This document shows positions 4,966 to 32,100 of a stretch of 64,000 nt of DNA, piece after piece. Under the pieces are notes generated by a model that saw only the letters and a program-made list of their open reading frames with translations, ran no database searches and was not told the origin of the DNA. How positions within the stretch are numbered: the first letter of the stretch is position 1; each line of letters starts with the position of its first letter. Origin of the DNA: Carpediemonas membranifera BICM. Its lineage: Eukaryota; Protista; Fornicata. The stretch is from NCBI GenBank assembly GCA_019828565.1, contig JAHDYR010000022.1, forward strand, positions 124,001 to 188,000, read 5' to 3'. The position numbers and the translations under genes were made by a program.

Positions 4966-5297
4966 TGTCGAGGCACTCGGAAACAAAATCTGCATCAGCC
5001 GGGATTCGAACCCGGGTCCACACGATGGCAACGTGCGATGATACCCCTACACCACTGATGCTTGCATACCGTCGTAGACGCGATGCGTAAGTACGCCTCG
5101 GGGCGTGGTACAGACCCAGATGGATTACCGGCCATCTGGTGCAAATATTCGAGAGAGATCGAATACTGACCAAATATTCGAATCAAATCTACGGTCCAGT
5201 TCAGACCAATTTTACCAAGGGGTTAAAACCCTATTCCTCGGTAGTTCCGAGAAGATGGGCGACGCACAGCCCCCCGTGACACTGGAGAGCCTGGAGG
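4966..5297 (+). repeat. ~330-bp dispersed repeat (tRNA-Gly + hairpin-rich leader + start of DIRS gag), copy of 55348-55678
   Basis: Near-identical to 55348-55678 with a few substitutions and one indel; the tRNA is identical. It ends within gag after MGDAQPPVTLESLE. Confidence 0.95.
4991..5061 (-). tRNA. trnG-GCC: tRNA-Gly(GCC), copy 1
   Basis: Reverse complement GCATCAGTGGTGTAGGGGTATCATCGCACG-TTGCCAT-CGTGTGGACCCGGGTTCGAATCCCGGCTGATGCA. Acceptor stem GCATCAG/CTGATGC, T-loop GGTTCGAATCC, followed by a TTTT Pol III terminator. Confidence 0.96.
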
Positions 5298-5340
5298 TCA
5301 GAGCATGTTTCCCATCAATCTCGGGTATAAATATGATCTA

Positions 5341-5378
5341 ATCAATTGGAGACTTCGACCGTAGTCGACTGCAAGTCG
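5341..5378 (+). repeat. 38-bp hairpin motif shared with the far end of the DIRS-like element (62493-62530)
   Basis: ATCAATTGGAGACTTCGACCGTAGTCGACTG[C/T]AAGTCG, 37/38 identical; contains a TCGAC-CGTA-GTCGA hairpin. Confidence 0.9.
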
Positions 5379-5890: not shown

Positions 5891-8800
5891 TTACCCTAGG
5901 AGCTGTGCATCCTTGAAAATGAGCTTGCCGGCGTTTCTGCGAAGTGTGGCGTGGAACCCTGCCTTCTTGATCACGAACTGATGCTTACATCCCCAGGCGA
6001 TCTCAGCGAGAGTGATGCCACTGACAAAACCGATGGCGTCGTTGCTAGAAACACGATCACTGTCCATGACGTTGAAGTCGAGACACTCATGCCAACCAGC
6101 GAGCTTCGTCAGGTCAAGAGTGAACGGCGCCCACACCGGGGCGCTGTTGTCCTTGATAGACTCGGTCGAGAACACTTCAGAACCATCAGATGTGCGAGTG
6201 ATCTTCACGAGAGCATCAGCAGCACTCATAGCGTCGCCGGAGAGCAGGTCGACGGCAGCCAGGGTCAGTGTGAGATGCTTGGGGGCGGCGGGGGCCTCCT
6301 TCGGCACCAGCATCTTAACAGGCTCGACCCCTGCGTTGTTGAAGAGGTTATCGACCTTGCCGCGGGACTCTGCCCGGCCGACAACCTTAGCCTCCGCGGC
6401 ATACGACCTAACGTGAAGCCCCTTGCTGACGCGAGCAAACCGGAGTCTCGGCACGTTAGGGCAGAGAAGCTCGCGGATTGAGACCTCGGTCTTGCCGACA
6501 AGGGAGTGGTCGGCATCTGAGTCCCAGTCCCACAGTTCGAGGGTGAGAAGCGAGTCAATACCGCCTACAAGCTCGGGGATGAGGGTTACCTCGAATGTGG
6601 GTGTTGACTGGTTCATCTTGACCTCAGTGCGGAGTACCACACCCGCATTGGCCAGAGCGACGGCCATGGCGGGTGAGGGCTCGGCAGCATGAACGCCAGT
6701 AGGAAGCATGGCGTGGGTAGCACTGACCTCACTGGTGTAGGGACCGTAAACGGACCTCTGCTTGAACGCCTTTGCCGTGCCCATCGGGAGGAGAGCAGCG
6801 TGGCTCCTGGTCTCACCCTTCTGGCTGAAAGTCACCGGGTTGGACAGCAGGGGGCCTGTCACAGTTAGGAAGGGGTCGTTCTTCGACAGGGCGTCCTTGC
6901 GGTCCATCTTGCCAAATTCCAGGGTGACCTTGACTGTCGTTGGGTGGGTCAGTGCTGAGCCGACTACTACTTCCCCAGCGGTCATGTCAGCATACTCGGG
7001 CAGGACCTCAGTGGCACTGATGACTGAGAGAATGCCCCGGTTCTTGCGGAGAAGGCCGGCGCCACCGTCGTTCTGAAGCACCACCATGGCCTCTGGGACA
7101 GTCAGCTGCTGCAGGGTGACATGCGCCTTGCCGATGAGGCTGTCGGCAGAGATACTGTCGTAATCCCAGAGTTCAATGGTGAATGTTGAAGTCAGGGAGC
7201 CGACAGATGCGGAGTCAATCTGGAATGGAGCAAACACGGGGGTGAGTGATTGCTTGATTGTCTCAGTTCTATAAATGATATGCTCTGGAGCGTTCTTATA
7301 CATCCTTCCCTTGACAACCAAGTATGGATCCGACTTACGAAGGGCGCCATCCATTCTTGGTATGTTCTTGCCCTCGAGCTGTAGCTTGTAGGCGACGGGG
7401 AGGGTACGGGGGTCAGCGCGGTCACACGATGTCATGGTGAGAGTGCCAGCATTACGGCCAACCCGACCCTTCTCCAGTGGCATGGCCCAAGGGAACCGGA
7501 CCATTGTTCTGAGGTTCATGAGACGGAAGCTGAATGCGGTGATCTCACTGATCTTTGAGAGGGCGCCGCTCTTTTCCCAATCGCTGATTCTGACAGTGAG
7601 GGGAGCATACATCCCACCGCAACGGGCAACGTCGAGGTAAATGGGTGTGAAGTCGGCATTAAGGGTTCGACGATGTACCTCAGATTGATACAAGATCTCG
7701 TCATCCTCTGATATGATCTGGAGCACAGGGTCGGCGCCAGTGCTCATGTCCATGCGGGTGAGCTTGGTCACAGAGAAGGAAACCATCGCTGCAAGGGGCG
7801 GCTCGACGTCAGCAGCTTCGTCGATGGACATCATCCGCTTCACGGCGACGTTGAGCTTGCCGCTGTTGTGGTAGACGGGGTTCGTCTTCTTCTCGTCGTT
7901 GATGAGTACAGTGTCATAACCCGCCTTGCCCCGGTTCATGATGACCTTCACGGGGATCGAGCAGACACCAATGAGGTCGCTGGAGCCGTCCTTGTCGCTG
8001 TCACTGATCTCAATCTCGAGATCGCTGTAGATACCACCCATATCTCTGAGAGTAAGCGTGACATCATCAAATGTCGGGTTGAGATCCCTGTTATGGACCT
8101 CTGAGCGATACACGAGGCGCCGCTCCCCCTTGCAGCCATAGGGCGTGCAGTAGATGTCGAGGAAAGGGTCTGACGATCGGGACACAGTGTCCTTCTTATC
8201 AAGGCCCTTGGCGTTGACGGTGAAGGTGATGGCGCCGGGCGGAGAGTAGATGTGCTCGGGCATGGTGTTGAGGGGGGCGACGGCGTCGACAGTGACGATA
8301 CCAGAGCCCTTGAGGGCCTGCAGGGGGCCTAAGCTCTTGCCCGCAGGTGTGATTGCCTGCCTGAACTCGGGTGTGATGAGCATTCTGAGTGTGGTGTTGA
8401 TGGAGCCGATGAGGGTGTCAGAGCCGTCTCTCTCGAAGTCGTAGAGCTCGAGTCTAATCAGCTGATCAATCCCACCGCACTCAGGAGAGAACACGGTGAC
8501 GGGGTCGAACGTGCAAGACTTCTTCCCGCGGTGGACCTCTGTCTCGAGGATGCGGCACTCAGTACCAGTTCGTCCAATGCCAGCCACAGCCTCCCTCTCC
8601 TCGGCGGGGAGGGGGTTGAGGACAAGCTCGAGAGGGATCTCGACAGGTCTGGTCTTGAACACAAGGTAGGGGTCTGACTTGGAGAGTCCCTCAACCTTAG
8701 GGACCTTGGCCACGGAAAGGGTAAGCTGGGCACCAGGCATGTCTGGTGCCAGGTCAGCAGGGGCGATGGTTCTAGCAGTAGTGACCTTGAGGACGCCTGA

Positions 8801-11800
8801 GTTGTTGTACTTTCTCACCATGTTACTGCCGTTCGGGTCGACCATGGGGATGAGGAAACCAGGCGTGAGCAGCGTGCGGGGCGTGACTACAGCCATGCCG
8901 ATGAGGTCCATGACGCCAGACTTATCGTAGTCCTGGACGACGAGGACGATTGGCTCATCTGGTCCGCCAGTAGAGGTGTAGCGGAGGAGGATGTTCTCGA
9001 ATGTCGGGCTCAAGTTGTTTTTGAACACGGCCGAGCGGTAGATGGGCACCTCGCACTTCTCAATCAACTCGGGGCCGAAGTTGACAGCGAAGTTCTCAGC
9101 AACGGCCTTAGCGCGCTTGTGGAAATCAGCGTATGAAGTCGGGTCGATCGCCGACTCACGAATGGCAGCGAGCTTCTTGTCATCGATAAAGGGCGTCTCA
9201 TCGCTAGGCAGCGCCATGACTGTGAGAACAGGGTCGGACTTGGAGAACTTGTCCTTGTTCTTGAAGCGTTTCACAGTCTCGAGGGTGAACTCGATAGCCG
9301 CATCGCCGGGGTCCTCCTCGATCACGTCAACCTTGTCGATGTTAAGGCAGAGTGTGGCCCTGCGCTTACGGACCTTCTTGTCGACGATTACAAGACTAAG
9401 TCTTGGGCAGTCGTCGATGAGATGAGAGAGCGTCGTGCTGGCATAGCCAAGCCTGTCATGCGAGCCGTCAGCGTCGTAGTCGAACACCTCAATGAGAAGA
9501 GGGGCATCAGCACCACCGCACTTCTCCGTCATGAGGGTAGCAGGACTAAATGTGGGGTTGTCATCGTTCATGCGGACCTCGGACGTGTAGAGGCAAACCG
9601 GCCGTCTGGGATAGTGCGTGGCCATGACGTTCTTGCCGAGCCTCGCCTTCATCTGGGCGATTGCAGCGTCCTCGTACTTGCTGGGCTGGGCGAAGGCGCT
9701 CACTCGGATGAAGAGGTCGACCTTAGTGGCCTCGATGCGGGGGACGTCCTTCATGCTGAAGGTGAGCGCATAGCCAGGCGCAACGGGCGGTCTGTGATCG
9801 ACGAAAGGCCCGCCGATCTCAACATGACCGAAGAGTTCTCCGGCGTTCCGGAAAGCCGACTTCCGGACTGCGCCCCAGATGGATTTCCTCTCGCTCTTGT
9901 CGGGCGACTTGAATATGAGGGGCATTCTCGCGTGTGAGACGGCCAACTCGTACAGAGAGGTGACTGTGCCGCCGATGGGCTTGTAAGCCTGACTCGTGCC
10001 GTGGAAGACCTCGATGATAAGTGCGTTATCAATGGAGCCACACATGGTGGGTGTCAGGGAGAAGGGCTTCCACTCAGGGTTGAAGGTGTCCTCGAGGATC
10101 TCAGATTGGTATATAGGGACGTAGAGAGGCGATTTGTCCTTCTTGGCGCCCTTGTGCAGGGCTGGGAGCGAGGGCTCGGCGTATACGATGAAGAACGGGT
10201 TAGAGCTCGTGGCCGCAGGACCGATGCCGTTCATCTTGAGCAAGTTCTTGGCACTGAGGGTGACGACGGCGGTTGAGACGTCCTTGCCCTTACCGAGGCT
10301 CTTGACGAAGGCAGATATGGAGGCAGGCTCGTGGGTGACATTGCTGAACGTAACGACTCCGTTGTTACGACGGACAAGCTTCTTCACGCTGAGGCCAGAG
10401 CCGTGGGCAGCTTCTCCGCTGGGCTCCAGCAGCGGGTAGGCCTTGTACCCCGAGCAGATGTTCCTGAGGGATGCGGTGAACATGCCGATATCGTCGTGGT
10501 CCCCGTTCTTCTCGTAATCCCGCACCCGCCACGTCAGCTGCTCGGAGAATGTTGCCCTGGCGTAGACAATGCCCTGGGGAGCGAGGCTAATGGAAGACCT
10601 GTCGAACTGAGGCGCGGTGCTGTTCATGACGACATTAGACCTGTACACGAGTTGGCCTGCAGAGTTCCTTACCTCGAGGAAAGGGTCTGCTATGTCGAGC
10701 CGCTCGCTCTTGAGCTTAGCAGCGGCCGCATCGAACTCTAGAACAAGGGGGTCGAGGAGTGGTTCGACGCTGGTAAGAACAGAGGAAACGACGACCGTGC
10801 CAGAGGACTTCAGCTTCCCTTCACGGTGCAGGGCGGCCTCGTGGGGTGCATCGGGGGACATCATCTGGCGCAGGGTGATCTCAGCTGACCCAATGAGCTC
10901 TGGGACACCGCCAATCTCGTAGTCGTTGACGGTAATGACGAGCAAGTCGTCGAGACCGGTGCTGCAGAGGTCGGGCAGACGGGGCATGTTCTGCCTGAGC
11001 CAGGTAAGGGCATTGGCGTCAGTACGGCCGCCGATCTCAGCAGTCTTGGCCTTGCGGGCTTTCATGGCAGCCTTGTAGTCGGAGCAGAAGTTGACACGGT
11101 GGAGCGGGATCGAGAACTGGTCCCACTCGGGGTTGAGATCATCCATCTTCACCTCAGAGCGGTAGATCTCAATATCCGGCTCAATCTTCCTGGCCAGAGT
11201 GAAATACGGATCAGATTTGGACGATTTCTTGAGAATGTTCTTGTCCATGTTCTGAAGCTTGAGGCCCTCGATCTTGAGGGTAGCGGAGAGCGGCGTGTCG
11301 ATGATAGGCTCAGCTTCTACATCAGGTCTGACGTTACCAATGTACATTCTGCCCCGGTGCTTTTGGGACTTATCGAGACGGTAGAGGAATGTGCGCTGTA
11401 CGTCGTCCACGCAGCACTGAGTGAGCACTCTATACGTCGTCACAGTCTCGGCGACGAGGTCGTTGTCGCCGTACTTGTCCCAGTCCATGATCTGGACCTT
11501 GATGAGGGCGTCAGGGCCTCCGCATGCCACTGCATCCAGCCTGATGCTCTCATACTTCGGATCCCGGTTGTTCATCTGCACCGCGCTCCTGTAAATCGTC
11601 ACCTCCTCCGCATGCCTCTCGAACGGCCCCCATGGTGCGGGCGGCACCAGGGGCATGGGGCAGGGGGGCTCAACAATGCCCTGCTGGTCCATAGGCAGGG
11701 TGACAGTGTGGGAGGGGGGGAGGATCGGGCGGGCAATGATCTCGAGATAGGGGTCGGTCTTGTCGGTGATGGATGAAGCAAGCTTCTCAAAACGGAAGTC

Positions 11801-13444
11801 AAGAGTGGATGCCATCTGGTGTGACGGGTTTTCCTCAAGCTGTTCAAGATTAGTGATCTCAACCAGGCCCCGGGAAACGGTTGGCCCCTTATCGTCGCAG
11901 TGCAGGACGAACTTAGTGCCGGCGAAGCACAGTTCGCGGAGAGTCGTGGTGCAGGAGCCAATGAAGTCCGTCTGGCCGTCGTTGTCCTCGTCATTGCACT
12001 CGAATGTGATCGTCGAGTCGTATGAGTCGCACGACTCAAGGGCCAAAATGATTCCTTCAAAAGTAGGGTTGAGATTCTTCTTCTGGACCTCCGTCTTGTA
12101 GATAGGGACGTTCGCATCCGTCACGGGAGGCAGCTTGAGTCTCTGGCGGAGTGCCTTGCATGGATCAGATGGTGTGGCGCTCTTGATGACGAAGAAGGGA
12201 TCTGAGCTCTTCCGACCAATGCCACTATCCATAGCAGCCAGCTTAGTGCAGGCTAGGTTGAAGCGGAGGTAGCGGGTGGACGCTTTGATGGGAGAGCACT
12301 CGGCGATGTCGTCCGTTCCACCGGACCATCGGACGGCGACAATGGGAGTAGATGAGGTGGCGGGGGCGTCCGGCAGGGTGAGGGGCTTGAGGAGGTGCTT
12401 GGTCATGACGATGTCGGACATGACCATGGGACTGCTGCCGATTGGTGTGAGCGTACCATTGGTGGCCTCACAAAACACCTCAAACGTCAGAGTCTCGGCG
12501 GGTGAGATGGCTGTGCGACTTAAGGCGAACTGGTCCCACTTGGCGACGTTTCCAGAGACAGAGGAGGACGGGGCTCGCATCATGAGGATGTTGCCCTTGA
12601 GGACCTTGAGGAGGTACTGCTTCTTGGGGTTGCTCGGCACCTGCAGCTCGACGGAGATCTTATCCCCGACAGGGGCTGGGGAGTCGCCAGCAGGCTTGGT
12701 CCGGACACCAGCGACGACGAGGTCGTACTTTGCCTGGCCGGTCATGGCGATGGTCTTTGCCTGACCAAGGACAATGTCAGAGAACTTCACAGAGCCAGAA
12801 GAGTGCACCTTTTGCTCGCCAGTGGCGAAGTTGTCAATGGAGATGACCTTGAGGACGAGCTCAGTGTCGGGTTTGACCGCTGAGGTGAGGACGGCGGGCG
12901 TCCATGCGACATCCTTCTTGCTGATTTCCCATGCAATCTCGGTGGCAAAGATCAGCTTGTCGCCGTCCTTGAGGTTGATCTGGAGCTGGAAATTCTTACC
13001 TGAGCCGAGCTTACCGAAGAGTTTGCCTGAGGTGATGCTGAGAGCGTGGAAGAGAACCTCGGTGCGGCTCGCGTCCAGAGTCGGCGAGTGGTCCCCAATA
13101 GCGGCGATAAGCCGCTTGGTGGTGGCTTCCCACAGCGCGATGACGTTCTCGTCCTGGTGGAACAAGTATTGCGTCCGGGCGGGCGAGACCAGAGCAAGGC
13201 CGATGAGGGAAGCGTTCTTGGGCACAGGATCAGCAGATGTAGCCCTACGGACCTCAGTGACGTCCTTGAGGGCTAAGAAACCCTTCTGATCGGTCATGGG
13301 CTCGTCAGTCTTGTAGTACGAGAACGACAGGGCAGTAAGCACGTGCGCCCGCTCCTTCCAGGACTTACCACTGCTATCTACCTTCAAGAAAGTGTCGACG
13401 AGCACGGGCTGGAACCCTGAGGGCTCCGGTTCGGGCGTAGACAT
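5891..13444 (-). CDS. Giant PH + tandem copine-type C2 domain protein (~2517 aa)
   Basis: N-terminal PH (KSWKERAHVL..LSYYK..KGFLAL..W). About 13 repeats of the copine C2 signature (SDP[FY]..[IV]Y[RK][ST]EV..N.NP.F..C/GG..D.D..D.IG). No vWA domain seen. Confidence 0.88.
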   Translation of the reverse strand: MSTPEPEPSGFQPVLVDTFLKVDSSGKSWKERAHVLTALSFSYYKTDEPMTDQKGFLALKDVTEVRRATSADPVPKNASLIGLALVSPARTQYLFHQDENVIALWEATTKRLIAAIGDHSPTLDASRTEVLFHALSITSGKLFGKLGSGKNFQLQINLKDGDKLIFATEIAWEISKKDVAWTPAVLTSAVKPDTELVLKVISIDNFATGEQKVHSSGSVKFSDIVLGQAKTIAMTGQAKYDLVVAGVRTKPAGDSPAPVGDKISVELQVPSNPKKQYLLKVLKGNILMMRAPSSSVSGNVAKWDQFALSRTAISPAETLTFEVFCEATNGTLTPIGSSPMVMSDIVMTKHLLKPLTLPDAPATSSTPIVAVRWSGGTDDIAECSPIKASTRYLRFNLACTKLAAMDSGIGRKSSDPFFVIKSATPSDPCKALRQRLKLPPVTDANVPIYKTEVQKKNLNPTFEGIILALESCDSYDSTITFECNDEDNDGQTDFIGSCTTTLRELCFAGTKFVLHCDDKGPTVSRGLVEITNLEQLEENPSHQMASTLDFRFEKLASSITDKTDPYLEIIARPILPPSHTVTLPMDQQGIVEPPCPMPLVPPAPWGPFERHAEEVTIYRSAVQMNNRDPKYESIRLDAVACGGPDALIKVQIMDWDKYGDNDLVAETVTTYRVLTQCCVDDVQRTFLYRLDKSQKHRGRMYIGNVRPDVEAEPIIDTPLSATLKIEGLKLQNMDKNILKKSSKSDPYFTLARKIEPDIEIYRSEVKMDDLNPEWDQFSIPLHRVNFCSDYKAAMKARKAKTAEIGGRTDANALTWLRQNMPRLPDLCSTGLDDLLVITVNDYEIGGVPELIGSAEITLRQMMSPDAPHEAALHREGKLKSSGTVVVSSVLTSVEPLLDPLVLEFDAAAAKLKSERLDIADPFLEVRNSAGQLVYRSNVVMNSTAPQFDRSSISLAPQGIVYARATFSEQLTWRVRDYEKNGDHDDIGMFTASLRNICSGYKAYPLLEPSGEAAHGSGLSVKKLVRRNNGVVTFSNVTHEPASISAFVKSLGKGKDVSTAVVTLSAKNLLKMNGIGPAATSSNPFFIVYAEPSLPALHKGAKKDKSPLYVPIYQSEILEDTFNPEWKPFSLTPTMCGSIDNALIIEVFHGTSQAYKPIGGTVTSLYELAVSHARMPLIFKSPDKSERKSIWGAVRKSAFRNAGELFGHVEIGGPFVDHRPPVAPGYALTFSMKDVPRIEATKVDLFIRVSAFAQPSKYEDAAIAQMKARLGKNVMATHYPRRPVCLYTSEVRMNDDNPTFSPATLMTEKCGGADAPLLIEVFDYDADGSHDRLGYASTTLSHLIDDCPRLSLVIVDKKVRKRRATLCLNIDKVDVIEEDPGDAAIEFTLETVKRFKNKDKFSKSDPVLTVMALPSDETPFIDDKKLAAIRESAIDPTSYADFHKRAKAVAENFAVNFGPELIEKCEVPIYRSAVFKNNLSPTFENILLRYTSTGGPDEPIVLVVQDYDKSGVMDLIGMAVVTPRTLLTPGFLIPMVDPNGSNMVRKYNNSGVLKVTTARTIAPADLAPDMPGAQLTLSVAKVPKVEGLSKSDPYLVFKTRPVEIPLELVLNPLPAEEREAVAGIGRTGTECRILETEVHRGKKSCTFDPVTVFSPECGGIDQLIRLELYDFERDGSDTLIGSINTTLRMLITPEFRQAITPAGKSLGPLQALKGSGIVTVDAVAPLNTMPEHIYSPPGAITFTVNAKGLDKKDTVSRSSDPFLDIYCTPYGCKGERRLVYRSEVHNRDLNPTFDDVTLTLRDMGGIYSDLEIEISDSDKDGSSDLIGVCSIPVKVIMNRGKAGYDTVLINDEKKTNPVYHNSGKLNVAVKRMMSIDEAADVEPPLAAMVSFSVTKLTRMDMSTGADPVLQIISEDDEILYQSEVHRRTLNADFTPIYLDVARCGGMYAPLTVRISDWEKSGALSKISEITAFSFRLMNLRTMVRFPWAMPLEKGRVGRNAGTLTMTSCDRADPRTLPVAYKLQLEGKNIPRMDGALRKSDPYLVVKGRMYKNAPEHIIYRTETIKQSLTPVFAPFQIDSASVGSLTSTFTIELWDYDSISADSLIGKAHVTLQQLTVPEAMVVLQNDGGAGLLRKNRGILSVISATEVLPEYADMTAGEVVVGSALTHPTTVKVTLEFGKMDRKDALSKNDPFLTVTGPLLSNPVTFSQKGETRSHAALLPMGTAKAFKQRSVYGPYTSEVSATHAMLPTGVHAAEPSPAMAVALANAGVVLRTEVKMNQSTPTFEVTLIPELVGGIDSLLTLELWDWDSDADHSLVGKTEVSIRELLCPNVPRLRFARVSKGLHVRSYAAEAKVVGRAESRGKVDNLFNNAGVEPVKMLVPKEAPAAPKHLTLTLAAVDLLSGDAMSAADALVKITRTSDGSEVFSTESIKDNSAPVWAPFTLDLTKLAGWHECLDFNVMDSDRVSSNDAIGFVSGITLAEIAWGCKHQFVIKKAGFHATLRRNAGKLIFKDAQLLG

Positions 13445-13730
13445 TTTGGGGTGAATTCGGGTGCAGTTTTGGAATGATCTCGCGATCTGGAGCTGTAAGG
13501 TAATGATCAGGGGGGAGTTTTCCCTAAATGCTGCCAAGATTAGCGTCAGTGCATTCATATACCGGCATGACTGATGCACTCACCTCCGAACTGTCTTCGT
13601 CGGCAGAGATACTCTGGTTTCAGTTGTACATATTACATAATATCATCAGCAAAATATTATCTGCCGTAACCACCGTCGCAGCCCTCTATCCACTGATTTA
13701 CATCTATTCTAGTATATACATAATTGCCCC

Positions 13731-15606: not shown

Positions 15607-15906
15607 CACGTCTGTAAAGATCCATTGAGGAGGATCGTATCTATGTCCTGATTCGCCGGAATCGTTGACGAAATTTAAGCCCGTATCAGCTCTAAAATTC
15701 TGGATATGGGTTGAAAGGCGTCTATATTATTAGAAGAGTCTGTCTGCCAGGTTTCTTCAATTTGAGGTCGGATTCGCCTAAAAACAATCTTTGACCACCG
15801 ATTAGATATGAAACGCTCAAAAATCGAAAATCGAAGTGAGTTCAGAATGACTCTAGAACCACTTCAGTAGCCTCTCGACACCCATTTACTTTTACGTAAA
15901 TGATCA

Positions 15907-16761
15907 CTACGAAGACATAGTATACACATAACCCCGACCCAAATCCACGAAATTCCGCCGCATCATCTGCCGCCCGCCCTCTCTCGTCGCGTTAATGAGA
16001 CTTGCGGCCTGCTCCTCGGAGAAGCCATTTGACAACAACACTGGAATGATCTTATAATCCGTCACGCCTCGCATGATGTTCTCATAAATCCATTCGAGCC
16101 ACTCATCGGGCACACGGTTGCAGCAGTAGTTATAGAACACAGAAAACGACACCTTGCCGGTGCCCGCTGAATCAAGCGCCATGATCTCCCGGATACGGGA
16201 TGAGATGTCATGGTCGGTCGCCCCTTCCTTCTGCAGGGCACGTTTGATGCCGTCCGCAGTGAGGCTGCCTCTAATTACGATTGACGCATCAAGACGCTTA
16301 AACTCGCTGATGATGTATAAATCGTGCATCGTTCGCTGGCACCGCATCGCTCTAAACTCATCAAAGTCGATGAACCCGTCCTCGTTGGTGTCGACGGCCT
16401 TGATCATCGCCTTGAGCTCGGTCAGTCGAGGAAATAGTCTGAGTCCGTTGACTACGGCCTTCAGCTCTTGCGGGCCGAAGAAGCCCTTGTTGTACACGTC
16501 AAACTTCTCAAACAGCATGTATGAGGCACTCTCACTCTCGATCTTGTGCACAGGGGCCTTCGAAACTTGCGGAGAGTGGGTCGAAGTTGCAATCTGAAGC
16601 TCTTCAACGCGGAGAATGTCGGGGGAAACGAGTTTCTCGGCGTCTGCTATAGGTGTGACTGTCGTATTCTTCACAATTTCCTCAGTTTCTGCTGTTCCAG
16701 CAGCAGAAATATCGGTCTCACCATCAGAATGGTCCCGGCGCTCAGATTCATCGTCGCTCAT
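15907..16761 (-). CDS. EF-hand calcium-binding protein
   Basis: DVYNKGFFGPQE, DTNEDGFIDFDE and DSAGTGKVSFSV loops. Confidence 0.85.
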   Translation of the reverse strand: MSDDESERRDHSDGETDISAAGTAETEEIVKNTTVTPIADAEKLVSPDILRVEELQIATSTHSPQVSKAPVHKIESESASYMLFEKFDVYNKGFFGPQELKAVVNGLRLFPRLTELKAMIKAVDTNEDGFIDFDEFRAMRCQRTMHDLYIISEFKRLDASIVIRGSLTADGIKRALQKEGATDHDISSRIREIMALDSAGTGKVSFSVFYNYCCNRVPDEWLEWIYENIMRGVTDYKIIPVLLSNGFSEEQAASLINATREGGRQMMRRNFVDLGRGYVYTMSS

Positions 16762-16765
16762 TATT

Positions 16766-16875
16766 TGTGCTGCGCAGGATTAGAATTGTTGAGTCCAAAA
16801 CACACAGTGATCCAAGCAGCATCAGGATCGCAGTGTGGTTCATCATACTCTATCAATCGTGCGCTGCATATCACG
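16766..16875. repeat. 110-bp exact direct repeat, copy 1 (copy 2 at 18189-18298)
   Basis: TGTGCTGCGCAGG...GCTGCATATCACG is identical at an offset of 1423; it contains an internal hairpin CACACAGTGATCC/GGATCGCAGTGTG. Confidence 0.97.
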
Positions 16876-17821
16876 CGCGCTGCAGCGCGTGTTTGCTCAA
16901 CTTAGCGCCATCAACCTGCTCGTCGGTCAAGTTGCTCTTCGCTGACCAATCCCGATAGACACGGAGGCGCCTCTTCATCGCTGGGGTGAGCGACATATAA
17001 CCGTACTCGATGGTCATGAACCCAGGCTTGACCGGTGCCATCGGCACGAACGGAACGAGCTTCAGCTCTGGCAGGGCCTGACTGAGCTCGAGGTTCACGG
17101 CACGAGTGAGTGTGACCAGCTTGGTCACTGCAGCACTCATGCGCGTGACGCACGACAGCACGCCGACGAGGGCCTCGGCCACGGTACCAGTGCGACCCAC
17201 CCGTTGCCCCTCGGGCAATGCATGTATTTGAGGATGATACCTGCCATGATCGGCGGCTATGGCGGCAACCTCAGTGTCGAGCTCGCCTAGGGTGTCGAGA
17301 AAATCCTGTCGAACACCCGGCTGATCATGGAGGAGCGGGCGCACCCGTTCTATTCCAGCACGAAGACGGGTCAGGTACCCGGGTGACGCGCGCGAGAGCC
17401 AGACCCGGGTGGCTGTGGAGTACTCACCCAACCAGCTCTGAAATGGAAATGCAATTCCAACGTAGGCTTCCCTGAAGTCCCGGACGAGTGGGGTTATGTC
17501 AGGGTCCCTCCACATCGCCAGGTCGCCAATCCACCTGCACCGATCCGCTGCCTTTGCCTTCGACACCTTTTGCTGAGCAATGCTGACGATCTGCTTGAGG
17601 ACCTCCTGGTCGAACAGGTTGACCGTCCTCGGTGGGGTCAACGCGTGCGCAGATGCAGAGACGCACGCAAGCAGGCAAGTGAATGTGTACTTAGCCTGCG
17701 TGAAAGAACGCATGCCCGGTTCAAGATTTCCTCGCCGCGGCGCGTTGTTATCGCCTCCACCGTTAATCTCGCCAATGGCCTTGTTAACGGAAGCCTTCAC
17801 CGTGTATATCTTGGAAGGCAT
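16871..17821 (-). CDS. Probable Fanzor1 N-terminal half (WED/REC), lacking RuvC
   Basis: Ordered motifs resembling the Fanzor1 N-terminus: YTVKASVNKAI; NLFDQEVLKQIV; GEYSTATRVWL; KLVPFVPMAPVKPGFMTIE (F..P....I[DE]). The ORF ends before any RuvC DPG/DPN motif, and its stop codon is supplied by the flanking repeat. Recognised by eye only. Confidence 0.55.
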   Translation of the reverse strand: MPSKIYTVKASVNKAIGEINGGGDNNAPRRGNLEPGMRSFTQAKYTFTCLLACVSASAHALTPPRTVNLFDQEVLKQIVSIAQQKVSKAKAADRCRWIGDLAMWRDPDITPLVRDFREAYVGIAFPFQSWLGEYSTATRVWLSRASPGYLTRLRAGIERVRPLLHDQPGVRQDFLDTLGELDTEVAAIAADHGRYHPQIHALPEGQRVGRTGTVAEALVGVLSCVTRMSAAVTKLVTLTRAVNLELSQALPELKLVPFVPMAPVKPGFMTIEYGYMSLTPAMKRRLRVYRDWSAKSNLTDEQVDGAKLSKHALQRA

Positions 17822-18190
17822 CGGAGTCTATTGAGCTGCCTGCATCGATCATTTCTTTTCAGGGTTCATCAGCTAGCAGCATCCCTCAAAACACAAGAAA
17901 CCAGCATCATACAACACAAAGCGTCTTTACTACCAGCTACAACCGCTTTCCACCACTAGTGTCTCTCACAACAGACGAAGATGACGAAGACGACGACGAC
18001 ATGAGCTTCAGACGCCGGCAATGGCCGACAGATGAGCGCGTAACAGACGAGCACAGACGCGAAAGAAGACAGCAGCGTTCGACACAGACGATGGACGACA
18101 GACGACGCATCTTTTCGTGCAGACCGACGACTGAAAGCACGAAAGCCCGATGGTACAGACGAGGGCTGAAGTGGGTGAGTGGAGGTAGTG
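16876..18190 (-). mobile_element. 3'-truncated DNA-transposon insert with CACTA-like end and subterminal CAGACG repeats
   Basis: Minus strand starts CACTACCTCC at 18190. Seven co-oriented CAGACG copies lie in 17972-18161, with two subterminal hairpins. The insert is bounded by the 110-bp duplication. Confidence 0.55.
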
Positions 18191-18298
18191 TGCTGCGCAG
18201 GATTAGAATTGTTGAGTCCAAAACACACAGTGATCCAAGCAGCATCAGGATCGCAGTGTGGTTCATCATACTCTATCAATCGTGCGCTGCATATCACG
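18189..18298. repeat. 110-bp exact direct repeat, copy 2
   Basis: Identical to 16766-16875. Confidence 0.97.
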
Positions 18299-18405
18299 GT
18301 CGGTAACACCATGCCGGTGGACAAGGAAGTCAAGTTCAAGGAGGAACAGTACAAGCACTATCGCGTCAAACCAACTGTGATCAATCCGCGGCCGGTTCGC
18401 TGTCA

Positions 18406-19263
18406 ATGAAGCTTGCGAGTCACCGCTTGGCCCTGTCAGGCGAGGGTGGTCTGGTCACAATTCTCCGGATTATGGATGTCACCTCCAAGGAGGCCAGGCA
18501 GGCGTTGATGGCTTCATATCGTGATAGAATCGGGATGAATCTTCATCAATCTGACGATCCCGACGCGATACCCATGGATATCAGAAACACGCCACCAGTG
18601 CGAGATCTGGTGCTATCTCCCGACCAGATCCAAATATTGTGTGATTCCCTCCTGGATGCCAGGACCACCCTCCCATGCGCCGCCGCACATCTGATACTAC
18701 AAATATTCATATCTGGTCCAGATTCTGTGGTTGATATGATCTCACCCGAGGCCGCTCTTGACCTGGTTTGGTCTTTGAGGGCTTTCCCCGCGGCCATGGG
18801 CAGGATGCTGGATTTGATTAGCTCGGGCTTGCCAGAAGATGTGCTCAGTGCAGACTCGAGATATGCAGAGAGTCAAAAGTTCTTGGATCAGATCAGAGCG
18901 GTCGATCTTACTGATGGGATACAGCTCCACGATCTTGAATGTATCATTGAATCGAGCGAGATCCTGACCGAATCGCACATGACGCTCAAACAGCTTGGAC
19001 TTGCTTCTGCCGAGGTTGCCATGGCGCTTTCCAAGTCTGGGTTTGCCTCATTCGGCATCCCGGACACAGTCCTGGCCTCTATTGCCGAGAAACCATTCGA
19101 ACAGCGTCTTGAATTCATCAAAAATCAAATGATTACCCTCTCCTCGCATCTCAACGTTGCGTACAAGAGCGCTGTCCGCGCCTGTGGTGTCTTTGACGTC
19201 AGCGGGCTCGACGTACTTGGCCTTCTGGCCCAGGAACGTGTCCTGAAAGACGCGGTCGAGTAA
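18406..19263 (+). CDS. Hypothetical protein (285 aa; true start may be near 18311)
   Basis: Long ORF; no motif recognised. Confidence 0.6.
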   Translation: MKLASHRLALSGEGGLVTILRIMDVTSKEARQALMASYRDRIGMNLHQSDDPDAIPMDIRNTPPVRDLVLSPDQIQILCDSLLDARTTLPCAAAHLILQIFISGPDSVVDMISPEAALDLVWSLRAFPAAMGRMLDLISSGLPEDVLSADSRYAESQKFLDQIRAVDLTDGIQLHDLECIIESSEILTESHMTLKQLGLASAEVAMALSKSGFASFGIPDTVLASIAEKPFEQRLEFIKNQMITLSSHLNVAYKSAVRACGVFDVSGLDVLGLLAQERVLKDAVE

Positions 19264-19307
19264 TCAATTGATTAGCAAATGTGCATTTATCAAGACCATA
19301 AACATCG

Positions 19308-22300
19308 CTACAGGCTGAGTGTGAATCCATTTCCCACCTTCCTCAGGTTAAATCTGCTGCCCAGTTGAACTGCCGTCTCCTCTGACACAAAGACAGAACC
19401 CGGGTCACACCTCGTCTCATTCTCCACGGCTCTCATCACTGCGGGGCCAAGGACGTCGTAGCTGAAGCGATAAGAGCCGAATACAGAGCCGCAGGCGGCC
19501 CCGCTGCCGATGCCCGCTCGAGCGGAGAGAGTCACCGCGGGATCGATGGCGTTGAATGCTTCGATATCCCTAAGGATAGCGATGGCGGCGCGGCACGAAA
19601 GGAGGGCGTGGTTGGTAGCTCCGTCGAAGAGGCCGCTCACGTACATCAGACGGTCGCCCATGGTCTTGATCTTGGCCAGACCGAACTCCAATGCTCTCTG
19701 GTCAGCTAGGTCGACCACATAATTCAGGAAGTTAAAGCTTCTGTCCCCAACCTTTGTCGTGTCAATCCTTTCAGAGAAGTTGACAAAGTCGATGACAGTA
19801 ACTGAACACGAGCTGACTGAGTCGAACGCCAGTGCAAGGGGACTCTTTGGTTGGGCAACCAAGGTAGACAGTGTGCTATGTCTGTGGAGTCGCATCGGAG
19901 TTGAGCTCGAGTCAGTTTCAGGGAGGAACACGCGGTCGATGAGGTGGGACGGCAACATGGCGCATATGATAGTGTTGATGCGTGTCTGCCGCTTGAGATG
20001 AAGCAGCCTGAATGCATGGCCGAGGTCTCCGGTGTTACGGCTGAGGCCGGATAAAATCGGGACAAAGGCGATCAGGGGGAACATATGCCAGTGGTTGGCT
20101 AAGGGAGTCAACCCGAATAAAATAAGAAGTATAAGAATAATAATAAAAGCAGCTGCGTTAACTAGCAGGGTCAGCCTCAAGAATGACCGGCCGTGAATAG
20201 GCATAATCGAGGAGTACTGCAAATACAGTAGGGCCGCCGTGATGTAGATGCAGAGGGGTGTCAGATGGACATCGTCGTCAAGATACCGGATCGTAAAAAA
20301 ATACTGCGCATAAAGAGTATCCATGAAAAGATTCAGTAGTGACACGTTGACCAGGATAAACAGCGAGGACAGAGCATGCTTGGATCTGCCACTTAGACGA
20401 CTGCCCAGGTCATGGAAGGCCATTTTCACAGCGAGCTCAGCGATGATGACGGAGCCCCCCGCCAGCTGTAGCAAGTAGGGAACCGTTGGTACGAATGCGT
20501 GGGGGCGGGAGTCCTCAAGCTCCGCGAACTGCAGCAACGGGATGCACAGGGCGATGATTGAGTGAACGGCGAGGAGGATGAATGAAAAACCGCACGCCCC
20601 CACGATGGTGTGCCTGCTACTGTCTGCTGACTTGTTCCAGTATCTCTCGTAGTCCTGCGCGGGGCGGGTCAGCGGCAGACCGTGGAGCAGCCATCCAATG
20701 GCGTGTCTCAGTACAACACGCGGGGTCGACCGGAAAAGTCGGGCGTCTGAGGATAGCGTGCGGGTGCTGAGCACAATGCGGTGGTCGAATGCACTGGTAG
20801 TCAGCCCACTGACTCGGGCCATGGACGTCGCCCCAGTGAGCTCCTCGGTGGACGTGACGGCAGAGACAATGGCTGCGGACGACATGCCCTGGTTGAGTGG
20901 CATCTGCGCATGGTCGAAGTCCCTCCCCTTACCAGTGTAAGCAAGGTTGGCCACCACACCGATGCGAGCAGTCAGAGGCTGGTCTACCGCAGTACTGGAG
21001 GTGCTGTACGATAGAATCTGGGACTCAGCCCGTTGTATCGACTCAGACGAAGTCAGTCCAATGAGGTTCAAGTTCTGCATCCCCAGGGCGGTCGTGCTCA
21101 TCATAGGGGGCAGCGGATGGGGCCGGGGCAGTGGTGCAATGCTCTCACTGGTGTCCTGCGTCGTCAGGCCAGTCGAGTCGCTCACAGTCGTTGATAGAGT
21201 CGATGTCAATGATGAACTCTGGTGCAGTCGGCGGTCAAAGGGCGGGGCAATGGTGACGAGGCGGGTGCTGGGGTCGAGACTACCGGCCTTTGTCAGGTCA
21301 GGAAGGGCGGAGTCAGTCGACAGTATCTTGACGGATTGTGATCGGCGTCTTGGCATGTCATCGCCATCGGGTGCCCGGGGTGAGAACGTTGAGGGGTTCG
21401 AGTGTCTTGATATTGTCTCAGAATCCACCAACTCTGTCATATCCAGGTGGAGCGAGGACGCGATATTGAACCGCACAGTATTGAGACCGTTCCTGGGCAT
21501 ATCGCATGTATCTTCGTTATCAGATTCAGATCCACTAGATTCAGTCGGTGAGAAATCGACCGAGACGGGTGACTCGGACGCCATATCAGAGTCAATCGTG
21601 CCGGCCTCCACCTCGACTCTTTCAGCCGTCAGTCGCCGTCTTCCCGCGGGAATCTCGCCGAGGTGGCTAAACGGGGTGAGGTTGCTGAGGCTGAATCCAA
21701 GCACATCGTTGGCCGCTGTTTCAGATCCCATAGTCAGCCTGGTCTCGGTCTCACTTGCGATCTCGGGATCGGTACTATCGTCCACGGCGAGCCTGATGGC
21801 TGAAAGGGGCAGGGACGCGCTCGCTGTCACAGTTGTAGCGGCCGCACTGCTCGAATGGTCCTGGCCCAGCCCGTCGAATGACACGGCGACGTTCTCAGGA
21901 CGGGGTATGGGCAGCATCAGGGCCCCAGTGACGGGGGTGTCGGTGTCCCTGGTCAGTTCAGAGGCGACAGAATGCAGGTCAGTGGGCGGGGTGCGGGCCT
22001 CGAGCACGGCGACTGTGTCCTCTACTGCCAGGGGTCTGTTTGACGCGATTTCCTCGACCACCCGGCCGAGCTTGGCGTTCCTGCTGACAACCTCAGCCAG
22101 CCTGTGTCGGACGACCGGCAGGGGAAGCCTCTCAACCCACTCAACGTCCCTATGCTGGCTGTGACCCTCTATCTTCCCCATGGGCGTGGCTGAGCACAGG
22201 GCTGAGCAAAGCTCTCCCGCAGTGGCAAGCGTCCCTGGTTTGGCGTGGGAGAGCAGGATCATGGCGATGGACACCGCCGGCCCGAGCACCTCGACGTGCA

Positions 22301-28460: not shown

Positions 28461-28794
28461 ATCCCTCACCGGCTAATCTCTCGACGACTAGACCCACTAA
28501 CCATTGCTCTGTCTCGGGGGCATGGCCCACCGAGAAGATGTTGATTAAATACTGGGGCAAGGTGGCGTCGGAGAGAGGGAGGGAGTGGCGGGCGAGGATT
28601 GAGCGTGCCGACATCGTGGCGGAAGGCATGATACGCACCTCTATCTCGCTGCGTATGTCGTCGAACAGTCGCGGCTGTTGCTTGCTCGTTCGTGCTCATC
28701 AGCGTGATGGCGTGCCTATCCTGGAGAGATAGCAACACTGAGCTTGAGAAGAAGTTGGTGGACGATCTCTTTCCGCAGTCTCACGACATTTAGT

Positions 28795-29149
28795 CCCAAG
28801 GAGACCCACAGGAGAGGTGCCAAGCGAAAGACCATCCAATGCGCGAAGAAGACGTTGCTGCAGAAGCGCGCCAATGACGCCGAGAGCTCTGCTAAGTAAA
28901 TAGACAGTTTAAGACTTCTTCCACCAAGCGTATTGCTTTTTTCACCTTAAATCAACCACGAGCTTGTTTATTTTGAGTCCTGAATTAAGCAATCAAACAC
29001 TGTGTTTTGAGTGCTGAAAACAGGTGAATTGAGCGATGGACGATGAGGGAACGGATGTTACTATTAAGGTGAAGAAGTCTCGTAACAAGGTACTTTGCAC
29101 GTTTATAGTGCAGATGAAGCAAGAGTGGACAGCTATGGAAGCCTTCGTG
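28795..29149. repeat. 355-bp exact direct repeat, copy 1 (copy 2 at 32463-32817)
   Basis: CCCAAGGAGACCCACAGG...GAAGCCTTCGTG is identical at an offset of 3668; it includes the left end of the Tc1-like element. Confidence 0.96.
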
Positions 29150-32100
29150 TAGTGGTCACCTGACCCGTATATATTTAGGCCATATTTACCACTAGGGTTC
29201 GACCCTATTTAAACACTTCGCATTGATTGTTGTTGTTCTGTGCCCACCACAGTAATATTACTATCTAGATGAACGTAGAACAACTATCAACTTTTTTCCT
29301 GGCACCCTATCTCACTAGTACGAAGCCTAAGGCATGGTATTCATTCCGGGAAGCTTTCATTGCCCATTACGCACGAAACGCCGCTTCCAAGCCTCTGATC
29401 TTCGATTACGTCGCAGCGACGGTTTTGAAGATCATGTTCCTCGAATGCCCGGACCTCGAAGACCTTATTACTCGTGCCCGTGAGGTCACACAGCAACCCC
29501 GCGCTGCGCCTAGGGACCCCCTTCTGTTCCTCGCGCCCCCTGAGTCTGACACTGATGACGACACCGAGTCTGACACTGATAGTTCGGTCTCCGACGAGTC
29601 CGAGCATCTACCCGTTCACACACCCGAGACCCCTAACGACTTCAACAAAAGATTTATCTCAATGGTGAACGACATCTTCGGACCCCTCGACCGTCAGGAC
29701 GCGCTCGACCGATTTGACTCGATTACCTTTGACACCGCCAGCAAGAACGTTTATGAGTCCATGCTCTACTACACGTTAATCTACCAGCGGACACTCGAAA
29801 ACTGCGCCTCTGTACCCCCGAAGCAGTCGAGCCTCGTAGCCAAATTCCTGAAGGGCATCCGCAATGATCGCTTACGTGAACGCTGTAAGACCTTTGAGGA
29901 TAAGTCCTCCATCGCCAACACCATGCGCGCCGCTCTCTCCCAAGCCAAGAAGATGCAGCAAGCCGAGAAGGAATCCCACAAGTCGCGGAAGAAGGACGTA
30001 AATGATAGGTCCTACGCGCACGATTTCCTCGCTGCTACGGTTGAAGAGTACTTAGACGCAATGTCAGCCGAAACGCCCAAAGACGATCAAGCAGAACACC
30101 GCCCAGTCTTCAAAGTCAGACTGCACGGATCCTCCGTGCGCGCCCTCTACGACACAGGTGCCACCGCCAACTTCCTCCATGAGGCGAAAGCGAAGTCCCT
30201 GGGCCTCACCCCCATTCCTGAGTGCCACAGGGTTCGCCTCATGTCAGGCCAACTAATCAACACCTCCCACGTGGCCTACGATACTGTCCTGTACCCTTCT
30301 GTGACAGGTAGACCCCTCTCTGTACGCACAAAGTTTATCCTCATCTCACTCGACCATTACGATGCGATCATCGGGTTCCCACTCCTGCGCAGCGCGGGAC
30401 TGATCGAGATACCCTCGCCTGACCTGACTCCGTCAAACCAGAACGACGACGACGAGATGTTCGAAAACGAGGTCGAGAGAACAGCCCCAGAATATGTGCA
30501 GTTTGCAGAAGCCAGCCAAAGGATTGTTGAAAAGTTCCCAGGCCTATTCGGGGACATTTCCAGCCCGTCCAAGCTCCCAGCATTCTCCCTGAAGACCAAG
30601 AATGACCAGGTCATCAACTGCTTCCCATATCGTCACGGCAAGCAGGTGGAAGATGAGGTTAATCGCCAGGTTAAGGAGCTGCTTGCTCTGGACGTCATCG
30701 AGCCTTCGGACTCAGCCTTCAATAACCCCATCGTCATGGCAAAGAAGAGAGGCAACAAGCTTCGCCTCTGCCTCGACTTTAGACGGCTGAACCTTATCAC
30801 CCAGGCCGAGGAGCATCCCCTACCCCTCATCGACGACTTGATTGATCACCTACAAGGCCAACAGTTTTACGCCACGCTGGACCTATCCAAAGCGTTCCAC
30901 CAGATCATAATCAACCAGGACTCGCGCAAGTATACCGCTTTTGTGGCTGGTGGGAAGAAATACCAGTATAAGCGGATGCCCTTTGGGCTTCGTAATGCTC
31001 CCATCCACTGCCAGAAAGCCATGGAACACATTCTGGGTCAATCCCTTTATACTCAGTGTCTCGCTTACATAGATGACATTGTCGTCTTTGGAGCGAATCG
31101 TGACGAGTTCCTGAAGAATCTGGAGGACGTGTTAGCTCGCATCCACGCGGCCGGTCTGAAGCTTAATCCTTCCAAGACGGTCATTGGAGCGACTTCCATC
31201 GACTATTTGGGCTGGCGAGTAGACAAGGACGGTAAGCGGATCTCCCCCGACCGTCTGGAGGCCATCCATGATCTCAAGGAGCCGACTAGTCTGACGGACG
31301 CCCGAGCCTTGCTCGGGTTCGCGAACTACTTTCGAGCACTCATTGAGCGTTACGTCGATATGACTGAACCCATCACCGAGCTCACCCGAGCCGCCGAAAA
31401 GTTCGTTTGGGGCGACCGACAACATGACGCGTTTGAGCAGATTAAGCGAGAGCTTCTACTGCAGCGCACGCTGGTCCACCCCTGTCCCGACGAACATCTC
31501 CACATTTTTACGGACGCATCAGACTACGGCATTGGTGGCGTGCTGATGAACGCGGAGTTTAAGCCCATCGCGTTCTTCGCCAAGACGCTCACGCCCCAAC
31601 AGCGCCGTTGGTCTACGATAGAGAAAGAGTGCTACGCTCTGTACTTCGGTACTACCAAGTTCAGACGCTATCTCGCTGGACGAGACTTCACAGCTCATCT
31701 AGATCACCGTAACTTGGTCTACATGGACCGTTCCTTGAATTCCAAGGTGATTAGATGGAGCCTCGCGCTGTCTGAGTACTCATTCGACATCGTACACGTT
31801 CCAGGTTCCGACAACTCTGTAGCGGACACCCTGTCCCGCCTCGTTCACCTGGACGAGACCTCCGTCGAACCTTCCCCTCCACCCGAGGCGCATCGGGAAT
31901 CCTTCCAAGAAGCACATGGCGGAGATTCTGGTCACCTTGGCCGTGATGCCACCTGCAAACGCATCATAGCCGCCGACAAGGGCTGGCCTGGCATGCGCCG
32001 GGACGTTACTGCCTGGATAAGACAGTGCCCTGTTTGCCAGTTGACACGCCTCAAGCTTTCACCGTTTCCCCAAGCGACCCATCCCATGACCGGCAGCCGA

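What the first reader, a model, noticed from the sequence alone, without database searches (positions are those of the whole stretch)
16766..18298. Probable Fanzor1 derivative without RuvC, in a CACTA-ended insert
Seen: a 316-aa ORF inside a 1.3-kb insert whose upstream end reads CACTA and carries 7 co-oriented CAGACG motifs. The ORF is uninterrupted and borrows its stop from the flanking repeat. From recalled Fanzor1 sequences, its motifs (TVKASVNKAI / LFDQEVLKQ / EYSTATRVWL / FVPMAPVKPGFMTIE) follow the WED-REC-WED half of these RNA-guided nucleases in order and approximate spacing, and it stops before RuvC. Inference: this genome hosts a Fanzor1 family, possibly in an EnSpm/CACTA-type vehicle. 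This copy is either a truncation or a nuclease-less RNA/DNA-binding derivative. The sequence immediately 3' of the stop, where an omegaRNA would lie, is the structured 110-nt repeat.
Basis: partly seen in the sequence, partly recalled or inferred. Interest (0 to 1): 0.75.

Follow-up and report, generated by a model that had tools for sequence, protein, structure and literature searches.

The report
Deleted Fanzor1 copy keeping guide-RNA end
This is a copy of a multi-copy jumping gene of the protist Carpediemonas that has lost its nuclease half by an internal deletion but kept the end predicted to make the guide RNA, so it likely acts only as a passive passenger and guide donor for intact Fanzor-type nucleases elsewhere in the genome.

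Summary
The ORF, the 110-nt repeat and the seven CAGACG motifs are real. The genome is Carpediemonas membranifera. The 316-aa ORF is 89.5% identical to the N-half of a 642-aa family member that carries the Fanzor1 fingerprints (TDG, DPG, alternative glutamate, C4 finger, RD); 58 of the 61 relatives retrieved are gene models of this species. The copy is an internal deletion, not a 3' truncation: it jumps from codon ~304 to just past the family's stop codon, and a second copy on another contig ends the same way. The 110-nt repeat is not flank. It is the family's own right end (predicted omegaRNA scaffold), which ends at the same base in 5 of 6 other contig junctions. CACTA is not a terminal inverted repeat: the right end reads CACA, and in two other copies about 31-33 nt of right-end sequence precede CACTA. 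The vehicle looks TIR-less with direct terminal redundancy, most likely a circle-forming element moved in trans; no transposase was identified. A sister protein is already listed in one Fanzor paper's supplement; I found no description of the element. The scan had not noted this family before. A new member of a known kind; moderate interest.

The parts
16871..17821 (-). 316-aa ORF: residues 1-303 are the N-terminal (predicted WED-I/REC) half of the family Fanzor1; the last 11 residues and the stop are read from the family's non-coding right end
   Evidence: 89.5% identity over 305 columns to P0041 residues 9-313; no TDG, DPG or HRD
16907..16910 (-). Internal deletion junction: about 330 codons (TDG-WED, RuvC I-III, zinc finger, native stop) are missing
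   Evidence: contigs laid up to 16906 continue with the reverse complement of the family's last codons and stop (loose ends behind 16906); same junction peptide in P0055 on another contig
16766..16906 (-). Family right end, 141 nt; predicted omegaRNA scaffold (two small hairpins and a long stem that closes 2 nt before the end)
   Evidence: sharp end at 16766 in 5 of 6 non-adapter left-side loose ends (register read by eye); fold z -1.8; variant T16865A repairs a stem mismatch; no Rfam match; expression as a small RNA untested
16766..16798 (-). Last ~31-33 nt of the right end; the same stretch precedes CACTA in other copies, so it behaves as a terminal direct repeat, starting just after a T-run
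   Evidence: P0034 boundary at 18221 and P0049 at 18219; contig with other flank behind 16799
16746..16765 (-). Predicted guide of this copy: the first 20 nt of flank, which cover the start codon of the EF-hand gene
   Evidence: sequence; guide role inferred from Fanzor rules (PMC10711439, PMC10432273)
17972..18161 (+). Seven co-oriented CAGACG motifs in the 5' non-coding part; none at the right end; role unknown (promoter or binding sites)
18186..18190 (-). CACTA: the junction of the right-end sequence (CA) with the unique 5' part; not a TIR
18189..18298 (-). Upstream partial copy of the right end (last 110 nt), head-to-tail with the element; lacks the first hairpin and half of the second
18294..18298 (+). 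5-nt microhomology shared by the repeat and the flanking gene sequence as found in other contigs
   Evidence: loose ends before 18294 in runs X3 and X4
15907..16761 (-). Host EF-hand gene whose start codon lies 5 nt downstream of the right end

Best explanation
This is an internally deleted, non-autonomous copy of a multi-copy Fanzor1-type element of Carpediemonas membranifera that has lost its nuclease half, kept both ends including the predicted guide-RNA scaffold, and is likely copied in trans through a circular or rolling-circle intermediate that would leave the 110-nt head-to-tail redundancy. Shown: family membership, the deletion, a second copy with the same deletion, the sharp right end, the lack of TIRs. 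Inferred: intact copies such as P0041 make an RNA-guided nuclease; each copy's right end plus ~15-20 nt of flank makes an omegaRNA that would direct cuts at the empty allele (TAM unknown); this copy can still donate a guide in trans, like the ghost loci of Spizellomyces; its 316-aa product is probably inert. The mover is most likely an HUH-type (Helitron2- or Replitron-like) enzyme, about 50%; recombination-driven copying after a break about 25%; reverse transcription about 15%; other 10%.
For: Family: 24 relatives near length and 2 longer, all C. membranifera, more in clusters; 53 of 61 proteins held are >=75% identical to P0041. Fanzor1 marks in P0041: TDG 334, DPG 392, glutamate six residues before the finger at 152 residues from DPG, HRD 603, matching the fingerprints in PMC10711439; 21 of 61 match my regex of the Bao-Jurka motif, 17 of 61 keep the D/E/D motifs. 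ESM Atlas: P0027 scores 0.98 to clusters with Cas12f1-like_TNB/DUF8286. Foldseek on a poor model: 5 of the top 5 are SpuFz or PpFz, best E 7e-4. A clear sister protein, KAG9392881.1, is in Table S2 (Fanzor HMM hits) of PMC10711439 (compared by eye). Deletion and ends. Circle-type vehicle: no TIR; first base after the end varies (A, A, G, G, T, T over six loci, plus the window); direct terminal redundancy of 31-33 or 110 nt; 3' hairpin; the Helitron2-borne CRe Fanzors also have intact 3' ends, internal deletions and T-run targets (PMC3627910); the genome holds geminivirus-like Rep and helitron-related genes and lacks NHEJ (PMC8516963).
Against: Direct profile evidence is weak: no Pfam, NCBIfam or PDB sequence hit at threshold for P0001 or P0041; both models are poor (pLDDT 42 and 43); the C-half model gave no Fanzor match and VIA-align found only helical bundles. 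P0001 alone scores only 0.80 in the Atlas. The left end rests on two gene models and one contig; P0018's boundary at 18193 is compatible with an end at CAC. No autonomous partner was found and the genome was not available. The Rep and helitron-like genes were reported as unexpressed. The coding-strand fold is only modestly better than shuffles. No small-RNA data.
Confidence: 0.72

Rival explanations
1. The element is an EnSpm/CACTA-type DNA transposon derivative with CACTA termini and CAGACG transposase-binding repeats.
For: CACTA and a one-sided motif array are present; Fanzors with EnSpm/CMC ends are reported (PMC10530073, PMC13565253); an unreviewed note reports a CMCT-clade transposase in this genome.
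Against: No inverted partner at the right end (3 of 20); right end reads CACA at 5 of 6 junctions; the only internal TAGTG (17958-17954) has no matching 3-bp flanks; shared sequence runs 31-33 nt past CACTA in P0034 and P0049; no CAGACG at the right end.
Confidence: 0.04
2. The 316-aa product is a selected, nuclease-less DNA- or RNA-binding derivative (TldR-like regulator or dominant-negative partner of intact Fanzor).
For: The frame is open and the same deletion occurs in a second copy (P0055, 97.7% identical over 214 aa); the TAM-reading REC/WED-I part is kept by analogy with SpuFz1.
Against: The open frame is inherited from a young family; many other deletions and frameshifts exist (13 of 61 have the N-half motif but no DPG); the parts that bind the omegaRNA in SpuFz1 (RuvC, NUC, second WED part) are gone; P0055's model starts only at residue 103.
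Confidence: 0.07
3. The 110-nt repeat arose after insertion: two family copies lay head to tail (second insertion or recombination into an older right end) and microhomology-mediated deletion trimmed the upstream one; it says nothing about the normal transposition route.
For: 5-nt microhomology at 18294-18298 and a rearranged right flank; a-EJ is present and NHEJ absent; redundancy length differs among loci (110 vs 31-33 nt).
Against: Three other boundaries cluster within 4 nt at 18219-18222, and an internal deletion in P0015 rejoins at the same place, which suggests a defined end; this rival is compatible with the Fanzor part of the best explanation.
Confidence: 0.3
4. Copies spread through RNA: a reverse transcriptase in trans starts at the fixed 3' end and template-jumps, giving Penelope-like partial tandems.
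For: Fixed 3' end, variable 5' side, partial tandem; retroelements are present in the window.
Against: No poly(A) or target duplication at the ends; no hammerhead match in Rfam and no CTGANGA core in the repeat (the one core-like site is at ~17872).
Confidence: 0.12

Closest known systems
SpuFz1 / Spu-1 of Spizellomyces punctatus, with partial copies and ghost loci (PMC10432273, PMC3627910)
   Same: Single ORF of ~640 aa with DPG, alternative E and RD at similar positions (D383/E541/D606 there; D392/E547/D605 in P0041); non-coding stretch between stop and right end; many partial copies; nuclease-less loci that keep the omegaRNA.
   Different: Spu-1 has 30-33-nt TIRs and TA duplications; this family shows no TIR, a longer right end (141 nt) and direct terminal redundancy. 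Sequence identity is too low for a phmmer hit.
CRe-1/2/3 Fanzor1 in Helitron2 elements of Chlamydomonas reinhardtii (PMC3627910)
   Same: Non-autonomous, intact 3' ends, internal deletions, T-run next to the 5' boundary, subterminal inverted repeat and 3' hairpin, occasional long flanking direct repeats.
   Different: There the flanking repeats are target duplications; here the repeat is the element's own right end. No matching Helitron was identified; no introns in this ORF.
Replitrons (PMC10288648)
   Same: TIR-less, terminal direct repeats, right-end hairpin; the genome has geminivirus-like Rep genes (PMC8516963).
   Different: Replitron repeats are ~6 bp; no Rep gene linked here; no Fanzor-carrying Replitron in the two papers that hold both terms.
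KAG9392881.1, C. membranifera, Table S2 of PMC10711439
   Same: Same species and, by eye, same family (RuvC half).
   Different: Listed only as an HMM hit; a diverged subfamily fragment; no element or RNA described in the passages read.
TldR nuclease-dead TnpB repressors (PMC13565253 passage)
   Same: No catalytic activity, guide RNA gene next door.
   Different: TldRs keep the RNA-binding fold (recalled); this ORF has lost the whole nuclease lobe.

Membership tests
Fanzor (family of the parent element) | D-x(125,275)-[TS][TS]-xx-C4 finger-x(5,50)-RD motif | tested here: met
   21 of 61 proteins held, incl. P0041, P0052, P0037, P0060; absent from P0001 by deletion
Fanzor | DPG in RuvC-I and glutamate six residues before the zinc finger | tested here: met
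   P0041 D392, spacing 152, 21 of 61 match; P0060 has both motifs at a spacing just over the 160 limit
Fanzor1 | TDG motif in WED and long REC insertion (~600+ aa) | tested here: met
   TDG 334 in 642-aa P0041; 37 of 61 carry TDG; helical N-half in the model
Fanzor1 | Structural match to solved Fanzors | tested here: inconclusive
   Top Foldseek rows are SpuFz/PpFz, E 7e-4, but TM 0.13 and pLDDT 42; C-half model no match
Fanzor1 | Placement inside the Fanzor1 clade of a tree | not testable with these tools
   No reference Fanzor sequences were available as session sequences
Fanzor1 | Conserved structured right-end RNA with variable guide | tested here: inconclusive
   Conserved end with different flanks shown; fold modest; small RNA not seen
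Fanzor1 | RNA-guided, TAM-dependent DNA cleavage | not testable with these tools
   needs biochemistry
Active Fanzor nuclease (this copy) | RuvC D-E-D triad | tested here: not met
   none of TDG, DPG, HRD in P0001
EnSpm/CACTA | TIRs beginning CACTA/CACTG at both ends | tested here: not met
   3 of 20 matches; right end CACA
EnSpm/CACTA | 2-3-bp target duplication | tested here: inconclusive
   none at this locus; both flanks of other loci could not be paired
Helitron2 / Replitron vehicle | No TIR, 3' hairpin, T-run target or terminal direct repeats | tested here: inconclusive
   fits, but the left end rests on three loci
Helitron2 / Replitron vehicle | Autonomous RepHel or Rep element with the same ends | not testable with these tools
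   genome not held; none among the long ORFs of the window that were scanned (10 scanned)
Penelope-like element | Hammerhead ribozyme in the repeated end | tested here: not met

The most novel reading that the evidence does not exclude
Carpediemonas carries a Fanzor1 on an undescribed TIR-less vehicle with ~31-nt terminal direct repeats (this part alone about 30% likely, interest about 0.6), and its dozens of copies, nuclease-less ones included, supply a library of guides that lets the intact nuclease make programmed R-loops and breaks across a genome that lacks ORC and NHEJ, thereby seeding the recombination-dependent replication proposed for this organism.
Probability: 0.03. Interest if true: 0.9.

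Novelty: new member of a known kind. Interest (0 to 1): 0.42.

Why it matters
The deleted copy itself is an ordinary by-product, known in kind from Spizellomyces. Its value is that it exposes a young, high-copy Fanzor1 family in a metamonad, a group for which my full-text searches found no Fanzor paper, with an apparently intact 642-aa nuclease (P0041) and a sharply mapped right end, so scaffold and guide can be tested at once. The family is distant from solved Fanzors and may add a TAM. Its ends do not fit the vehicles described in the papers read, and it sits in a eukaryote without NHEJ or ORC, where the fate of RNA-guided breaks is of interest.

Tried and rejected
No whole genome is held, so copies could be studied only through gene models and run contigs. 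Pfam, NCBIfam and PDB sequence searches gave nothing at threshold; the family profile gave Cas12f at E 0.08 over the zinc finger only. Scans for relatives in metagenome and viral contigs found none, nor did the end sequence, so no covariation test was possible. Both structure models were low-confidence; VIA-align rows were generic. No other family copy in the window. Depth was not used as copy number: no listed run is on record as RNA, but all four give no cover at 19309-19400 and X1/X2 none at 15800-15920, so they may be transcript data, and records are filtered; the depth drop at 16814/16815 is unexplained. An early reading that the repeat is a right end plus spacer plus left end with imperfect TIRs was dropped when one search showed the end at 16766. 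snoRNA/SECIS/hammerhead identities for the repeat: no Rfam support. Self-targeting by the upstream scaffold (its guide would be the element's own 5' part) was rejected as unlikely: that copy lacks the first hairpins, and the bases before the target are the same as before every guide; a literature search on this gave 3 off-topic papers. No guide target with <=2 mismatches in 15 nt elsewhere in the window. Carpediemonas was not found in the supplements of PMC10530073 (2 files) or PMC10432273 (9 files searched; one scanned file unreadable), and no transposon names in those of PMC8516963 (10 files; one unreadable). Repbase was not searchable.

Full report
Observation. The window holds an open 316-aa frame at 16871-17821 on the minus strand, two identical 110-nt direct repeats 1423 nt apart and seven co-oriented CAGACG at 17972-18161. 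The motif cluster exceeds local chance: in 2000 shuffles of the 370-nt region the motif never passed 4 copies, and in 1000 shuffles no hexamer passed 6. CACTA is at 18190-18186 and overlaps the upstream repeat by two bases.

Host and family. All 24 near-length and both longer homologues of the ORF are Carpediemonas membranifera gene models. With cluster members (15 of 22 members of the largest cluster were listed) I held 61 proteins: 57 named from this species, the window's own, one unnamed near-identical fragment, and two from unnamed metagenome sources (P0032, P0060). 53 of 61 are at least 75% identical to the 642-aa P0041; P0060 is a full-length relative at about 41%. Residues 1-303 of the window's ORF match P0041 9-313 at 89.5%.

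Is the family Fanzor1? P0041 has TDG at 334, DPG at 392, a glutamate six residues before CPYC, a second cysteine pair and HRD at 603. PMC10711439 (passages) calls DPG plus this glutamate the fingerprint of Fanzors, found in under 1% of TnpB-family proteins, and TDG characteristic of Fanzor1. 21 of 61 proteins match my regex of the motif in PMC3627910 (parts 1-4 of 7 read), 17 of 61 keep all three catalytic motifs, and 4 C. membranifera models plus P0060 have them together with the N-terminus. The ESM Atlas places P0027 at 0.98 with largely viral clusters bearing Cas12f1-like_TNB and DUF8286. A Foldseek search with a poor model of P0041 (pLDDT 42) ranks SpuFz and PpFz chains in the first five places (best E 7e-4, TM 0.13). 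Against this, no HMM or PDB sequence search passed threshold, the C-half model found no Fanzor, VIA-align gave only helical bundles, and the window's ORF alone scores 0.80 in the Atlas. Table S2 of PMC10711439 lists KAG9392881.1 of this species among Fanzor HMM hits; by eye it is a sister of the family's C-half. I put family membership at about 95%.

What happened to this copy. Contigs from coded runs laid on the locus follow the window down to 16906 and then continue with the reverse complement of the family's last codons and stop (loose ends in X1, X2, X4). So 16906-16766 is the native non-coding 3' part, and the window's copy has lost about 330 codons between codon ~304 and that point. Its last 11 residues are read from the 3' part. 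P0055, on another contig, ends in the same peptide (2 of 61), so the deleted form has been copied at least once. The deletion removes TDG, all of RuvC and the finger. In SpuFz1 the omegaRNA is held by RuvC, NUC and WED residues 312-317 (PMC10432273 passages), so the product is unlikely to load a guide. 13 of 61 models have the N-half motif without DPG: broken forms are common, and an open frame in a young family is no sign of selection.

The repeat is the right end. In one search (runs X2, X3; 10 loose ends, all shown; 16 of 27 pieces shown) six contigs carry unrelated flanks on the left of the repeat. Read by eye, five of the six end in register with 16766, two of them with a small indel in the last bases and one with a substitution; one stops at 16780. 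A seventh loose end there is an adapter-like string that recurs at unrelated places. The first base beyond the end differs (A, A, G, G, T, T with the window). The 141 nt fold into two small hairpins and a long stem closing two bases before the end (z -1.8, 8 of 200 shuffles; the opposite strand folds better, z -3.2), like the three-stem Fanzor1 RNAs described in PMC10711439. A variant seen in 8, 7 and 1 contigs of X1, X2 and X4 turns a stem mismatch into a pair (-47.8 to -52.9 kcal/mol). Rfam has no match. The guide of this copy would be the 20 nt over the EF-hand start codon. Expression as a small RNA is untested.

The left end and the vehicle. CACTA has no inverted partner (3 of 20). Two gene models from other contigs run into the element through right-end sequence placed before CACTA, with boundaries at 18221 (P0034) and 18219 (P0049); a contig has a different flank at the equivalent of 18222, and P0015 rejoins at 18221 after an internal deletion. 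P0018 begins at 18193, just after a possible splice acceptor, and is ambiguous. The simplest reading is an element whose last 31-33 nt are directly repeated at its start, after a T-run in two of three other loci; here the redundancy is 110 nt and ends at a 5-nt microhomology with a neighbouring gene sequence. Terminal redundancy, a fixed 3' end, a 3' hairpin and no TIR point to a circular or rolling-circle intermediate (inference). The CRe Fanzors in Helitron2 share several of these traits, Replitrons have terminal direct repeats (PMC10288648 passages), and this genome has geminivirus-like Rep and helitron-related genes, reported as unexpressed, and lacks NHEJ (PMC8516963 passages). No partner was identified. 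Post-insertion rearrangement of tandem copies could equally explain the 110 nt.

Mechanism. Shown: family, deletion, second deleted copy, right end, no TIR. Inferred: intact copies cut TAM-plus-guide sites, favouring retention or spread of the element as for other Fanzors/TnpBs; deleted copies move in trans and may donate guides, as ghost omegaRNAs of S. punctatus work with SpuFz1.

Novelty. Partial copies and nuclease-less loci are known (42 full or partial and 134 ghost loci in S. punctatus). Full-text searches for Fanzor with Carpediemonas or metamonad returned 0 papers; the species is absent from two other Fanzor supplements but present in one. Repbase and unreadable supplement files may hold more. 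The scan's own index had no look-alike. PMC8516963 (Discussion, part 1 of 2) proposes replication from RNA:DNA hybrids and breaks; a link to this nuclease is my speculation. PMC10530073 and PMC13565253 were read as passages only. Verdict: new member of a known kind, interest 0.42.

Noticed in passing
P0030 (J8273_6085): Chimeric family member: residues 1-225 are 38% identical to P0041 but 50% to metagenome P0060, residues 226-508 are 93% identical to P0041: an N-half (TAM-reading) swap between subfamilies. A third subfamily (P0029, P0031, P0033, P0061, ~30%) also exists.
   Followed up: partly
P0034 and P0059: Two copies on different contigs share about 45 codons of upstream sequence not in the window; may be part of a larger vehicle or a duplicated segment.
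   Followed up: no
window 18294-19272: Looks like an internally deleted copy of a gene found elsewhere: contigs show other sequence before 18294 and extra sequence between 18395 and 18396, and a 96% paralogue. Could be a captured fragment.
   Followed up: partly
window 16761-16770: The right end lies 5 nt before the EF-hand start codon; contigs of the gene carry an adapter-like string at 16766, a weak hint that the element end serves as or replaced its promoter. The same string joins at 16782, 16792 and 17703 in the antisense direction.
   Followed up: no
window 16770-16783: The last 20 nt of the right end read like a branch point and 3' splice site (CTAAT...CAG); P0022 is a gene model fusing the Fanzor N-terminus to Cdc73.
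   Followed up: no
window 28786-32753: Ty3-type LTR retrotransposon, 300-nt repeats 99% identical, 1100-aa gag-pol.
   Followed up: no
window 33446-34420: Tc1/mariner-type DDE_3 transposase ORF next to a 41-nt palindrome at 34428-34497.
   Followed up: no
window 56735-63900: RT, RNase H and integrase ORFs of further retroelements; repeats shared with 4966-5378.
   Followed up: no
window 5891-13579: A 2,562-aa ORF of many C2-like repeats (identity recalled from motifs, not tested).
   Followed up: no
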